A stretch of DNA of 36,661 nt from Escherichia phage HK75. Below the pieces are notes generated by a model. The model saw only the letters and a program-made list of their open reading frames with translations, was not told where the DNA came from and did not search any database. Shown here piece after piece: positions 8,203-25,703 of this stretch. Position numbers and translations under genes: made by a program. The stretch is taken from the sequence record HM173637; one strand, written 5' to 3'. Every line of letters begins with the position of its first letter. Position 1 is the stretch's first letter.

Positions 8203-8391
8203 ATGGAACCACTGGTAGTAGTGTTTGGAATATTCGGCTGGCTGATAAATCTAATTGTGATTTTTTATTTATTACGGTTTAGCACAAGGGCAAATGAACA
8301 AGTTGAAGCCCTTAAAGAGATAAATAAAAAGCAAGATGCGCAAATAGATTTATTAATACAAGTCGCTCACCAAAGAAAAGACAGTTTATAA
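8203..8391 (+). CDS. Small single-pass membrane protein (moron A), unknown function
   Basis: 62 aa; AAGGAGG RBS at 8192-8198; N-terminal hydrophobic helix then charged tail with RFSTRANEQVEALKEI motif; AT-rich; own terminator. Confidence 0.5.
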   Translation: MEPLVVVFGIFGWLINLIVIFYLLRFSTRANEQVEALKEINKKQDAQIDLLIQVAHQRKDSL

Positions 8392-8397
8392 CTCACG

Positions 8398-8422
8398 ACC
8401 CGCTATCAAGCGGGTTTTTTTT
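8398..8422 (+). terminator. Intrinsic terminator after moron A
   Basis: ACCCGC-tatcaa-GCGGGT followed by TTTTTTTT. Confidence 0.6.
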
Positions 8423-8434
8423 ATGGGTGAAAAT

Positions 8435-12798: not shown

Positions 12799-13509
12799 AT
12801 GCGTCAGAAAACCATCGATGCGATTATGGCGCATGCTGCAGCTGAATATCCTCGTGAGTGTTGCGGCGTGGTGGCGCAAAAGAGCCGGGTAGAGAAATAT
12901 TTTCCATGTAGTAACCTCGCTACCGAGCCGACAGAACATTTTCACCTGTCGCCAGAAGACTATGCAGCTGCTGAGGACTGGGGTACGGTGATCGCCATCG
13001 TTCACAGTCACCCTGACGCCACAACGCAGCCGAGCGAACTGGATAAAGCGCAATGCGACGCAACGCTTTTACCCTGGCATATTGTGAGCTGGCCGGATGG
13101 GGATTTACGCACCATCCAGCCGCGCGGAGAACTGCCACTGCTGGAGCGTCCGTTTGTGCTTGGACACTTCGACTGCTGGGGGCTGGTAATGAGCTATTTC
13201 CGGCAAACGCATGGTATCGAGCTCCACGATTACCGGGTGGATTATCCCTGGTGGGAAAACGCCTATCCGGACAATTTTTATCAGGATTGCTGGTATGAAT
13301 GCGGATTCAGGGAGTTTGACGGCCCGCCTCAGGAAGGGGACCTCGTCATCATGCAGGTGCAGGCCGATAAGTGGAATCATGCCGGGATTTTACTGGAGGG
13401 TAACATGCTGCTGCACCACCTGTACGGACATCTGAGCCAGCGCGTGCCGTATGGGGGCTACTGGCAGGAAAGGACGATGAAGATTCTTAGACATCAGAAT
13501 TTTATTTAA
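12799..13509 (+). CDS. K: Tail assembly protein K (MPN/JAB plus NlpC/P60-like)
   Basis: 236 aa with HSHP motif and conserved Cys/His, lambda K position. Confidence 0.75.
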   Translation: MRQKTIDAIMAHAAAEYPRECCGVVAQKSRVEKYFPCSNLATEPTEHFHLSPEDYAAAEDWGTVIAIVHSHPDATTQPSELDKAQCDATLLPWHIVSWPDGDLRTIQPRGELPLLERPFVLGHFDCWGLVMSYFRQTHGIELHDYRVDYPWWENAYPDNFYQDCWYECGFREFDGPPQEGDLVIMQVQADKWNHAGILLEGNMLLHHLYGHLSQRVPYGGYWQERTMKILRHQNFI

Positions 13510-13556
13510 CAAACTGTCACTGATACTATCGTGTAGCACACAGCAAGGAGAACGAT

Positions 13557-13781
13557 ATGTATACAGTTGGGTTTGGTTGGATCTTCGTCGGTATTTTTAT
13601 TGGGTTAATTCTCTGGTTTTTCATCAACCGCGCCAGCGTCAGAGCGAACAGGCAGGTTGAATTACTTGAGTCTATCGACCAGAAATTATCAAAAATAGTA
13701 GATCCAAACTTCGAGGCAAATAACAAAGACCAGTCGAAAGAAAACTACCTTGAAGAAGCAAGGAAAAAAGCTGGGCTTTGA
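13557..13781 (+). CDS. Small single-pass membrane protein (moron B), paralog of moron A
   Basis: 74 aa; AAGGAG RBS at 13545-13550; TM helix then NRASVRANRQVELLESI motif shared with the 8203-8391 protein; own terminator. Confidence 0.5.
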   Translation: MYTVGFGWIFVGIFIGLILWFFINRASVRANRQVELLESIDQKLSKIVDPNFEANNKDQSKENYLEEARKKAGL

Positions 13782-13796
13782 GAGCGTAAATTAACA

Positions 13797-13820
13797 AACC
13801 ACCTACGGGTGGTTTTTTTT
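13797..13820 (+). terminator. Intrinsic terminator after moron B
   Basis: AACCACC-tacg-GGTGGTT followed by TTTTTT. Confidence 0.6.
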
Positions 13821-13831
13821 ATGGGGGCAGC

Positions 13832-14440
13832 ATGCAAGAGGTAATGACAAGAATTGAGCTAAGTGGCGTGCTAGCTAAGACATATGGAAGGGTTCATCAC
13901 CGTCTGGTTCGCACTACTGCTGAAGCCATTAATGCACTCGCGAAAACCATCAATGGATTCGAGAAATTCTTAAACACAAGCAAGGCCCGAGGGCTGACGT
14001 ATGCCGTTTATAGAGATAAAAAGAATATTGGCGTTGATGATCTCGGCTTTCCCGTCACCGGCGAAGTGATCCGGATTGTCCCTGTAGTAATAGGGAGTAA
14101 AAAGGCTGGTCTTTTGCAGACGATCTTGGGGGCTGTGCTTATTACTGCTGCTGTGTTGACTGGACCAGGCGGTATTGGCGCTGCTTTCGCTGCTGGTGGA
14201 TTGACGGGGTTTGCTGCTGCCACTGGTGCCTCGTTGGTCCTCGGTGGGGTTATTCAGCTGCTTTCACCGCAGCCATCAGGCATAGCCAGTAAACAAAGCG
14301 CAGATAACCGTGCATCGTATGCGTTTGGCGGGGTAACCAACACTGCAGCGCAAGGCTACCCGGTGCCTCTGCTTTATGGTAAGCGTCGAATCGGCGGAGC
14401 GATTATTTCTGCCGGAATTTATGTCGAAGATCAGCAGTAG
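13832..14440 (+). CDS. I: Tail assembly protein I
   Basis: 202 aa with Gly/Ala-rich hydrophobic C-terminal half, between K and J as in lambda. Confidence 0.7.
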   Translation: MQEVMTRIELSGVLAKTYGRVHHRLVRTTAEAINALAKTINGFEKFLNTSKARGLTYAVYRDKKNIGVDDLGFPVTGEVIRIVPVVIGSKKAGLLQTILGAVLITAAVLTGPGGIGAAFAAGGLTGFAAATGASLVLGGVIQLLSPQPSGIASKQSADNRASYAFGGVTNTAAQGYPVPLLYGKRRIGGAIISAGIYVEDQQ

Positions 14441-14459
14441 ATAACTAACCTTTTTTCTG

Positions 14460-14481
14460 GCCACCTTCGGGTGGCTTTTTT
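14460..14481 (+). terminator. Hairpin plus T-run between I and J
   Basis: GCCACC-ttcg-GGTGGC followed by TTTTTT. Confidence 0.5.
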
Positions 14482-14492
14482 ATGGGCGCAAT

Positions 14493-25530: not shown

Positions 25531-25640
25531 AATAAGACCTCAACTCTTTTCCACCCGTCACGTAATTTACGGGTGATTCGTTCAAGTAAAGATTCGGAAG
25601 GGCAGCCAGCAACAGGCCACCCTGCAATGGCATATTGCAT
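25515..25640 (-). CDS. cIII: cIII-like FtsH inhibitor
   Basis: MQYAIAGWPVAGCPSESLLERITRKLRDGWKR matches the recalled lambda cIII N-terminal/central region; 41 aa from the internal ATG of the 25515-25742 ORF. Confidence 0.6.
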   Translation of the reverse strand: MQYAIAGWPVAGCPSESLLERITRKLRDGWKRVEVLLCAMK

Positions 25641-25703
25641 GGTGTGCTCCTTATTTATACATAACGAAAAACGCCTCTCGTGAAGCGTTATTGGTATGCA
25701 TAT

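What the first reader, a model, noticed from the sequence alone, without database searches (positions are those of the whole stretch)
13510..13822. Second, paralogous membrane-protein cassette between tail genes K and I
The 74-aa ORF at 13557-13781 has the same architecture as the 8203-8391 protein and shares the motif R-x-S-x-RAN-x-QVE-x-L-x-x-I immediately after the TM helix (FYLLRFSTRANEQVEALKEI versus FFINRASVRANRQVELLESI). Two diverged paralogs, each with its own RBS and terminator, inserted at two different junctions of one tail operon is an unusual arrangement. It suggests a family of tail-module-associated membrane factors, possibly with two specificities.
Basis: seen in the sequence. 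Interest (0 to 1): 0.8.

Follow-up and report, generated by a model that had tools for sequence, protein, structure and literature searches.

The report
Second YebO-like moron in tail operon
This is the already catalogued "gene 20" moron of HK97/HK022-type coliphages: a small membrane-protein gene with its own terminator and a likely promoter, wedged between tail genes K and I. It is related to the host protein YebO and to the phage's own injection-blocking protein gp15; its function is untested in anything I could read, and a second superinfection-exclusion factor is the most likely role.

Summary
ORF 13557-13781 (74 aa) and ORF 8203-8391 (62 aa) are real paralogs: BLASTP E=5e-9, both above the Pfam PF13974 (YebO) cut-off, both in phrog_5031.

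It is not new. The window is an HK97-like lambdoid phage. ORF B is HK97 gp15, the founding "moron" and an experimentally shown superinfection-exclusion protein. ORF A is 100% identical to HK022 gp20, which its GenBank record labels "moron gene product" and RefSeq E. coli genomes label "YebO family protein". At least six isolated phages carry both genes intact.

Additions from this work:
- In all but one of 55 fetched loci, the phage-borne YebO-like gene sits among recognisable tail genes, at the T|H, H|M or K|I junction.
- gp20-type genes evolve under purifying selection (dN/dS 0.04-0.2). They keep a terminator and an extended -10 box (TGnTAnnnT).
- Hybrid proteins link the two types.
- Laboratory HK97 carries an amber mutation in gene 20.

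The function of gp20 is untested in the literature I could reach. The best inference is a prophage-expressed inner-membrane blocker of phage DNA entry, with a specificity different from gp15.

The parts
12799..13509 (+). Tail tip gene K (JAB/NlpC-P60), upstream neighbour of the cassette
   Evidence: ORF. It is 95-100% identical to K of HK97 and HK022.
13521..13529 (+). Promoter-like extended -10 box, TGATACTAT (TGn + TACTAT), 27 nt before the ATG
   Evidence: The generic -35/-10 scan missed it. TGnTAnnnT occurs at -45..-30 in 12 of 17 diverged loci, against a shuffle mean of 0.6 and a maximum of 4. Promoter activity itself was not tested.
13545..13550 (+). Ribosome-binding site AAGGAG, 6 nt before the ATG
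   Evidence: Read directly from the sequence.
13557..13781 (+). ORF A: gene 20 moron product, a 74-aa YebO-family bitopic membrane protein. Layout: TM 5-23; NRASVRANRQVELLESI helix; hinge D49-P50; C-terminal tail YLEEARKKAGL.
   Evidence: It is 100% identical to HK022 gp20. dN/dS is 0.04-0.2. AF2 models helices 2-48 and 53-71. The positive-inside rule predicts N-out/C-in.
13796..13823 (+). Intrinsic terminator of the cassette (hairpin 13796-13815 plus T-run)
   Evidence: It is annotated as a terminator in HK97, HK633 and other records.
13832..14440 (+). Tail tip assembly gene I, downstream neighbour
8203..8391 (+). ORF B: HK97 gp15 orthologue (98.4% identical), a 62-aa YebO-family superinfection-exclusion protein at the T|H junction
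   Evidence: Function is reported in PMC3594210.
8397..8423 (+). Terminator of the gene 15 moron
   Evidence: (-13.0 kcal/mol, z -4.8); HK97 annotation.
14459..14483 (+). Lone terminator at the I|J junction. It matches the terminator that closes the gp22/gp23 moron of HK97, whose body is absent here.

Best explanation
ORF A is the 'gene 20' moron of HK97/HK022-type phages.

Shown here:
- It is a self-contained insertion between tail genes K and I, with a leader carrying an extended -10 box and a ribosome-binding site, a 74-aa ORF and an intrinsic terminator.
- It has a low-G+C signature.
- It encodes a YebO-family protein that evolves under purifying selection.

Predicted:
- The protein is a bitopic inner-membrane protein with only about 4 residues in the periplasm.
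- One helix runs from the membrane into the cytoplasm and carries the conserved NRASVRANRQVELLESI motif.
- A flexible hinge follows, then a conserved basic C-terminal tail, YLEEARKKAGL.

Inferred mechanism:
- In a lysogen the gene is transcribed from its own weak constitutive promoter and stops at its own terminator.
- During lytic growth, Q-antiterminated late transcription reads through it. This is established behaviour of lambdoid late operons.
- Like its paralog gp15, the protein sits in the inner membrane and stops the DNA of superinfecting siphophages from crossing it. It would do so by interfering in the membrane with the tape-measure/tail-tip conduit or with the host inner-membrane protein that the conduit uses.
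- Its TM helix, middle segment and C-tail all differ from gp15, so the phages it blocks are expected to differ. The double arrangement would then give a lysogen two exclusion specificities.

The two genes came together by module shuffling: a V-G-T-gp15-H block joined to an M-L-K-gp20-I block. They did not arise by local duplication.
For: Identity:
- 100% protein identity to HK022 gp20, labelled 'moron gene product'.
- The locus is 99.4-99.8% identical to HK633, HK022 and HK97.
- Family membership rests.

Cassette anatomy. Lambda has no intergenic space at K/I or T/H.

Real, selected gene: dN/dS is 0.06 (window vs L028), 0.08 (L005 vs L039) and 0.04-0.2 elsewhere. There are 17 invariant residues across 21 homologues.

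Autonomous expression signals are conserved across diverged loci:
- A terminator follows nearly every copy.
- TGnTAnnnT is present in 12 of 17 loci, against 0.6 expected.

Homology to a proven exclusion protein:
- ORF A matches gp15 at E=5e-9.
- ORF A matches a Klebsiella-phage protein at 47% over 72 aa, E=7e-22. That protein carries both the gp15 middle segment and the gp20 tail, and sits at the gp15 position.
- gp15 blocks genome injection, and the block depends on the tail tube/tape-measure genes of the incoming phage (PMC3594210; PMC10883804).

Tail-operon linkage across Escherichia, Enterobacter, Serratia, Pantoea, Citrobacter and Klebsiella.

The gene is dispensable for phage growth: lambda lacks it and HK97 has an amber at codon 33.

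Module shuffling rather than duplication:
- gp20 occurs with at least four tape-measure types, while K and I stay at 93% identity or more.
- gp15 occurs only with tape-measure proteins 71% or more identical to the window's.
- The two cassettes are barely alignable as DNA.
Against: - No experiment on gp20 was found in the searchable literature. The primary gp15 paper and the HK97/HK022 genome paper are not held.
- No PADLOC model matches either protein.
- In its core, ORF A is closer to chromosomal YebO than to gp15. Overexpression or deletion of YebO had no effect on HK97 (PMC3594210), so homology alone does not guarantee exclusion activity.
- The promoter is only a comparative prediction. The generic sigma-70 scan found nothing upstream.
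- The predicted topology leaves almost nothing in the periplasm, so any contact with an incoming tail must be within the membrane or indirect.
Confidence: 0.5

Rival explanations
1. Host-YebO mimic, or a lysogenic-conversion factor. gp20 would replace, titrate or mimic chromosomal YebO at its unknown membrane partner and change host physiology, with no direct role in phage exclusion.
For: The TM-juxtamembrane core is 73% identical to E. coli YebO, including a 13-residue identical run, IGLILWFFINRAS. DNA identity in that core is only 67% and the longest exact match is 8 nt. The match is therefore kept by selection on the protein, not by recent transfer. In the core tree the gp20 type groups with chromosomal YebO (89% bootstrap for the split).
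Against: - All gp20-type genes found lie in tail operons and none elsewhere, a linkage that a general host-physiology gene would not need.
- The C-terminal tail YLEEARKKAGL is shared with phage forms and is absent from chromosomal YebO, which ends in ..IRLVAER or ..VIPER.
- The only tested family member is an exclusion protein.
Confidence: 0.2
2. Same specificity as gp15. gp20 and gp15 would act together, for example as a hetero-oligomer through their similar juxtamembrane helices, on one target rather than giving two specificities.
For: They share the R-x-S-x-RAN-x-QVE-x-L-x-x-I helix. They co-occur intact in six isolated phages plus this window.
Against: - Each occurs alone in many phages. 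gp20 is alone in HK022, mEp235, HK542, mEp506, ECP1 and all non-E. coli loci. gp15-type genes are alone in Citrobacter and Klebsiella prophages.
- HK97, with gene 20 knocked out by an amber, still shows gp15 exclusion.
Confidence: 0.1
3. A factor of the lytic cycle. The protein would serve the phage's own tail assembly, DNA ejection or lysis timing, for example as a holin-like small membrane protein, rather than serving the lysogen.
For: It lies on the same strand inside the late tail operon, so it is certainly transcribed late. It is a small bitopic membrane protein.
Against: - Lambda has no equivalent, and HK97 carries an amber in it while being a standard laboratory phage.
- It has its own terminator, a likely promoter and deviant G+C, which are moron hallmarks.
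- The window's lysis genes lie elsewhere.
Confidence: 0.07
4. A neutral passenger: a selfish cassette or a decaying remnant that does nothing for either the phage or the lysogen.
For: The HK97 copy is inactivated. Only 7 of 5426 complete E. coli genomes carry the cassette.
Against: There is strong purifying selection over saturated synonymous divergence. Length, motif, C-tail, terminator and -10 box are conserved across three bacterial families.
Confidence: 0.05

Closest known systems
HK022 gp20 (AAF30371.1, 'moron gene product'); also labelled 'YebO family protein' in RefSeq E. coli genomes
   Same: The protein sequence is identical, as are the K|I position, leader and terminator.
   Different: Nothing of substance differs: one extra T in the terminator T-run and one base in the spacer. 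In the literature I could search, gp20 has no experimentally assigned function.
HK97 gp15, the first described moron and a superinfection-exclusion protein
   Same: Both belong to the same Pfam and PHROG family. Both have an N-terminal TM helix followed by the RAN-x-QVE helix. Both have the moron anatomy, with a ribosome-binding site, terminator and low G+C inside the tail operon. The gp15 orthologue is present in this same window at 8203-8391.
   Different: - Identity is only 43% over 44 aa.
- gp15 has the middle segment KKQDAQIDLLIQVAH and lacks the YLEEARKKAGL tail. ORF A is the reverse.
- They sit at different junctions: T|H, next to the tape-measure gene, versus K|I.
- The gp15 leader lacks the strict TGnTAnnnT box.
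- gp15 has experimental proof of function; gp20 has none that I could find.
Chromosomal YebO of E. coli K-12 (b1825, 95 aa, next to mgrB)
   Same: Both are in Pfam PF13974. The core is 73% identical over 30 aa, E=1e-13. The predicted topology is the same.
   Different: - YebO has a 13-residue N-terminal extension, a QQKRQNALLRRL middle, an acidic linker and an ..IIRLVAER end.
- It is chromosomal, not in a prophage.
- It is reported to have no effect on HK97.
- DNA identity in the shared core is only 67%.
Three-segment YebO-like proteins of Klebsiella phages (e.g. QBQ71586.1 of ST101-KPC2phi6.3, 77 aa)
   Same: They carry the ORF A-type tail DYLEEARKKAGLI and the RAN motif, and match ORF A at 47% over 72 aa, E=7e-22. 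They are also morons inside a tail operon.
   Different: They also carry the gp15-type middle segment KQSAQIDLLIALAH, and they sit at the T|H junction.
Other inner-membrane injection blockers: P22 SieA, and Ltp and Sie2009 of Gram-positive phages
   Same: They are prophage-expressed membrane proteins that stop DNA entry after adsorption. For TP-J34 the block is overcome by changes in the tape-measure protein; for P22 SieA, resistance maps to the ejection proteins gp16 and gp20 (PMC10883804). This is the same kind of job proposed for gp20.
   Different: None shares sequence similarity with ORF A: Pfam and PADLOC scans gave no such hits. Their sizes and topologies differ.

Membership tests
Pfam PF13974 YebO-like / phrog_5031 | Profile match above the curated threshold | tested here: met
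   ORF A scores 47.7 bits and ORF B 38.7 bits against a gathering score of 27. Against phrog_5031 they give 6.9e-41 and 4.2e-29.
Pfam PF13974 YebO-like / phrog_5031 | A single N-terminal TM helix immediately followed by the (N)R-x-S-x-R-x-N-x-Q-[IV]-E-x-L helix | tested here: met
Chromosomal YebO orthologue group | N-terminal extension, QQKRQNALLRRL middle segment, C-terminal ..[IF]IRL[VI][AP]ER, and a chromosomal locus beside mgrB | tested here: not met
   ORF A has none of these and lies in a phage tail operon. It is a family member but not an orthologue.
Moron (sense of Juhala et al. 2000, as restated in PMC3594210) | Extra DNA between genes that are adjacent in related phages | tested here: met
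   Lambda K and I overlap, whereas 322 bp lie between them here. Loci that carry the gene at H|M or T|H have no YebO-like gene between K and I.
Moron (sense of Juhala et al. 2000, as restated in PMC3594210) | G+C content different from the surrounding genes | tested here: met
   0.395-0.405 against about 0.53-0.56.
Moron (sense of Juhala et al. 2000, as restated in PMC3594210) | Own terminator | tested here: met
   It is conserved in nearly all homologous loci.
Moron (sense of Juhala et al. 2000, as restated in PMC3594210) | Own promoter | tested here: inconclusive
   The generic scan found none. A conserved extended -10 box, TGnTAnnnT, is strongly enriched at a fixed distance (12 of 17 loci against 0.6 expected).
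Moron (sense of Juhala et al. 2000, as restated in PMC3594210) | Expression from the repressed prophage | not testable with these tools
   Needs RNA or protein data from a lysogen.
gp15-type superinfection-exclusion proteins | Sequence homology to HK97 gp15 | tested here: met
   E=5e-9, and the same Pfam and PHROG families.
gp15-type superinfection-exclusion proteins | gp15 clade signature: middle segment KKQDAQIDLLIQ[VI]AH, 58-62 aa, T|H junction beside an HK97-type tape-measure gene | tested here: not met
   ORF A falls in a separate clade (94% bootstrap), lacks the segment and sits at K|I.
gp15-type superinfection-exclusion proteins | Blocks genome injection of superinfecting phages without blocking adsorption | not testable with these tools
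   Needs plating, adsorption and injection assays.

The most novel reading that the evidence does not exclude
YebO-like morons would be a mobile family of inner-membrane 'entry locks' that move between junctions of siphophage tail operons (T|H, H|M, K|I). Each variant would be tuned to a different injection conduit or host inner-membrane co-receptor. gp20 would then be an uncharacterised second lock, so HK633-type lysogens carry two non-redundant exclusion specificities. The near-identity of the gp20 core to host YebO would mean that chromosomal YebO, whose function is unknown, binds the same membrane partner. YebO might even be a domesticated or ancestral anti-phage factor of Enterobacterales.
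Probability: 0.3. Interest if true: 0.5.

Novelty: already known. Interest (0 to 1): 0.25.

Why it matters
If gp20 is a second exclusion factor, it would extend the best-studied moron paradigm from one protein to a small family with several specificities. It would give a handle on which tail or host components decide inner-membrane DNA entry in lambda-like phages. It would also offer the first functional clue for YebO, an uncharacterised protein found in Enterobacterales chromosomes. In practical terms, laboratory HK97 carries an amber in gene 20, so published HK97-lysogen phenotypes probably reflect gp15 alone. As it stands, though, the element is an annotated, previously described cassette, and nothing found here contradicts expectations.

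Tried and rejected
- **PADLOC and NCBIfam scans:** no meaningful hit.
- **PDB profile search:** only chance matches to rotavirus NSP4 coiled coils, E>0.1. I ran no fold search, because the AF2 model is just two helices.
- **Rfam on the whole window:** nothing at either cassette.
- **Generic -35/-10 promoter scan:** nothing upstream of either gene. I replaced it with a comparative motif test.
- **blastn of the cassette against 5,426 E. coli genomes:** it found only 7 prophage copies and did not reach chromosomal yebO. I fetched yebO by coordinates instead.
- **Recent tandem or segmental duplication of the two cassettes:** rejected, because the DNA is barely alignable.
- **Recent capture of ORF A from E. 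coli yebO:** rejected. Nucleotide identity is 67%, the longest exact run is 8 nt, and half of the identical codons differ at the third base.
- **Minus-strand ORF 13526-13726 (66 aa):** rejected as spurious. The plus-strand frame shows low dN/dS and matches Pfam and PHROG family profiles.
- **Literature:**
  - The primary papers (Cumby 2012, Juhala 2000) are not held.
  - One search on 'YebO' was swamped by surnames.
  - Searches for gp20, the mEp phages or HK633 gave nothing on function.
- **First homology searches by word index:** they returned only close relatives. The exhaustive profile search showed that the whole family is small, at 73 clusters.

Full report
**What the window is.** The first 25 kb matches HK97-like lambdoid coliphages. 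The best match is HK633, at 97.9% identity over 86% of the query, followed by HK446, HK106, mEpX1 and mEp234. The 500 bases around the finding are 99.4-99.8% identical to HK633, HK022 and HK97.

**Checking the observation.**
- The ORF at 13557-13781 (74 aa) exists, with an AAGGAG ribosome-binding site 6 nt upstream.
- A hairpin plus T-run follows at 13796-13823. It folds at -14.7 kcal/mol, z -3.3.
- The ORF at 8203-8391 (62 aa) has the same layout and its own terminator at 8397-8423.
- The pair aligns at 43% identity over 44 residues, E=5e-9.
- Both proteins exceed the Pfam gathering score for PF13974 'YebO-like' (47.7 and 38.7 bits against 27). Both fall in phrog_5031.
- Both cassettes are G+C troughs, 0.345 and about 0.40 against about 0.53.
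- In lambda the corresponding gene pairs T/H and K/I overlap, so both cassettes are added DNA.

**What the two genes are.** ORF B is HK97 gene 15, labelled 'moron product' at the same coordinates 8203-8391 in AF069529 and 98.4% identical. gp15 is the first element ever called a moron. [quoted passage not shown] The block depends on the tail region of the incoming phage. Its homologues are the YebO proteins of Enterobacteriaceae (PMC3594210; PMC10883804).

HK97 injection needs PtsG and FkpA (PMC5099701). From my own recollection of Cumby et al. 2015 (Mol Microbiol 96:437, not held here), a region of the tape-measure protein determines both the PtsG requirement and gp15 sensitivity.

ORF A is 100% identical to HK022 gp20, labelled 'moron gene product' in AF069308. 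RefSeq E. coli genomes call it 'YebO family protein' and the ECP1 record calls it 'YebO'. The element and its family assignment are therefore already on record. PHROGs lists the family as 'unknown function' and PADLOC has no model for it. I found no experiment on gp20.

**How common the double arrangement is.** tblastn against 50,697 phage records gave the following.
- An intact gene 20 is present in mEp235, HK542, HK446, mEp234, mEp506, HK544, ECP1, HK022, HK106, HK633 and mEpX1.
- Gene 15 is present in HK446, mEp234, HK544, HK106, HK633, mEpX1 and HK97.
- Six isolated phages, plus this window, therefore carry both genes intact.
- HK97 differs from the window and from HK022 by a single C-to-T change that turns codon 33 (CAG) into TAG. 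This explains why its record has no gene 20 CDS.
- Only 7 of 5,426 complete E. coli genomes hold the cassette.
- Only 5 of 185,579 species-representative genomes hold a gp20-type gene: Enterobacter, Serratia (two) and Pantoea (two).

**Context of relatives.** I mapped YebO-like ORFs and tail genes in 55 loci from phage records, metagenomes, IMG/VR and species genomes.
- Every phage-borne copy lies on the tail-gene strand.
- In 54 of the 55 loci the neighbours are recognisable tail genes. L051 showed no recognisable neighbours at my thresholds.
- The gene occupies one of three junctions:
  - K|I, which holds most gp20-type genes;
  - H|M (L034-36, L042-44, L056);
  - T|H, which holds gp20-type genes in L040/L055 and L041, the gp15 type in L007-10, and a 77-aa form in the Klebsiella phages L013 and L047.
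- gp15-type genes occur only next to tape-measure proteins 71% or more identical to the window's, even where the downstream tip genes are of a different kind.
- gp20 travels with the near-identical M-L-K-I block, next to at least four different tape-measure types.

The two-gene state is thus a product of module shuffling. The two cassettes are barely alignable as DNA.

**Family structure.** An exhaustive profile search of 1.84 billion representative proteins found only 73 clusters. Their sequences fall into four forms.
- **Chromosomal YebO:** an N-terminal extension, a QQKRQNALLRRL middle and a ..IRLVAER or ..VIPER end.
- **gp20 type:** RANRQ[VI]ELLESI plus the C-tail YLEEARKKAGL.
- **gp15 type:** the middle segment KKQDAQIDLLIQ[VI]AH and no tail.
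- **Three-segment phage forms:** both the gp15 middle and the gp20 tail (P0073, P0076 and the Klebsiella phages).

An NJ tree of the 57-column core gives three groups: the gp20 type (94% bootstrap), chromosomal YebO, and gp15 together with the hybrid and other tailed forms. The split that places gp20 with the chromosomal forms has 89% support.
- ORF A matches E. coli YebO (73% over 30 aa, E=1e-13) better than it matches ORF B.
- It matches the Klebsiella three-segment protein best of all (47% over 72 aa, E=7e-22).
- The shared core is only 67% identical at the nucleotide level, so this is an old relationship kept by selection on the protein.

The simplest reading is a phage-borne ancestor with three segments. 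gp15 would have lost the tail, and gp20 would have replaced the middle segment.

**Evidence that gp20 is a working, independently expressed gene.**
- dN/dS is 0.04-0.2 wherever dS is unsaturated.
- 17 residues are invariant across 21 homologues.
- Nearly every copy, at any junction, is followed by a hairpin and T-run just before the next tail gene.
- 12 of 17 diverged loci have TGnTAnnnT 30-45 nt before the start codon, against a shuffle mean of 0.6 and a maximum of 4 in 2000 trials. In the window this is TGATACTAT at 13521-13529.

The promoter is still a prediction.

**Architecture.**
- The N-flank has no K or R, and three Arg follow the TM segment, so the positive-inside rule gives N-out/C-in.
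- AF2 with a 21-sequence alignment gives one helix over residues 2-48, with block-mean pLDDT of 82-94 over the first 30 residues.
- A break follows at D49-P50, then a low-confidence helix over 53-71.
- No relative has a solved structure.

**Mechanism and rivals.** My best explanation is that gp20 is expressed from the prophage and acts in the inner membrane to block DNA entry of superinfecting siphophages, with a specificity different from gp15. Late Q-antiterminated transcription simply reads through its terminator. The anatomy, family membership and selection are shown. The expression, location and activity are inferred.

| Reading | Confidence |
|---|---|
| Second exclusion factor with its own specificity | 0.5 |
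| YebO mimic acting on host physiology | 0.2 |
| Partner of gp15 on a single target | 0.1 |
| Lytic-cycle function | 0.07 |
| Neutral passenger | 0.05 |

**Verdict.** The element itself is an already described and annotated moron, and the family link is in Pfam, PHROGs and RefSeq. The comparative points added here refine the picture but do not make it a new kind of system. Those points are the three junctions, the hybrid forms, the conserved -10 box and the HK97 amber.

Noticed in passing
L001 6754-6756 (HK97 AF069529 about 13656-13658), equivalent to window 13653-13655: Laboratory HK97 differs from this window and from HK022 by one C-to-T change that turns codon 33 of gene 20 (CAG, Gln) into an amber TAG. 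HK97 therefore makes only a 32-aa stub, and its record has no gene 20 CDS. HK97-lysogen phenotypes probably lack gp20. In a supE host (my own knowledge) the amber would be read as Gln again.
   Followed up: yes
window 14459-14483: A lone hairpin plus T-run sits between I and J. It closely matches the terminator that closes the gp22/gp23 moron of HK97 (L001 8205-8227), whose body is absent here. In the window, all three tail-operon terminators (8397, 13796, 14459) run straight into ...TTTTTATGG. Many homologous loci end in a similar TTTTTAT. This may be a common junction for gain and loss of morons.
   Followed up: partly
L013 6983-7216 (Klebsiella phage ST101-KPC2phi6.3); L047; P0073, P0076: These are three-segment YebO-like proteins of 77-91 aa at the T|H junction. 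They combine the gp15-type middle segment (KQSAQIDLLIALAH) with the gp20-type tail (DYLEEARKKAGLI). They are either an ancestral form or recombinants of the two types.
   Followed up: partly
L049 7962-8426, L050, L051 7947-8411: These are 154-aa YebO-like proteins. In L049 and L050 the gene lies downstream of the V, G and T tail genes, and in L049 directly after the tape-measure gene; L051 showed no recognisable neighbours. The TM helix and RANR motif are fused to an extra C-terminal domain of about 100 aa with no match that I looked up.
   Followed up: no
L005/L006 6276-6707; L054 8210-8712; L055 13380-14203: In Serratia and Pantoea prophages, further unannotated ORFs or gaps (for example a 143-aa ORF with no Pfam hit) lie between K, or the YebO-like gene, and I. 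The K|I junction therefore looks like a recurrent landing site for extra genes.
   Followed up: no
window 25595-25653 (-): Rfam match to the lambda cIII thermoregulator element (RF01804, 88.5 bits, E=1.7e-20). This is expected for a lambdoid early-left region.
   Followed up: no
L012 3262-3767 (E. coli K-12 1908261-1908766): Chromosomal yebO lies 74 bp downstream of mgrB on the same strand. The function of YebO remains 'uncharacterized' in the K-12 annotation.
   Followed up: no
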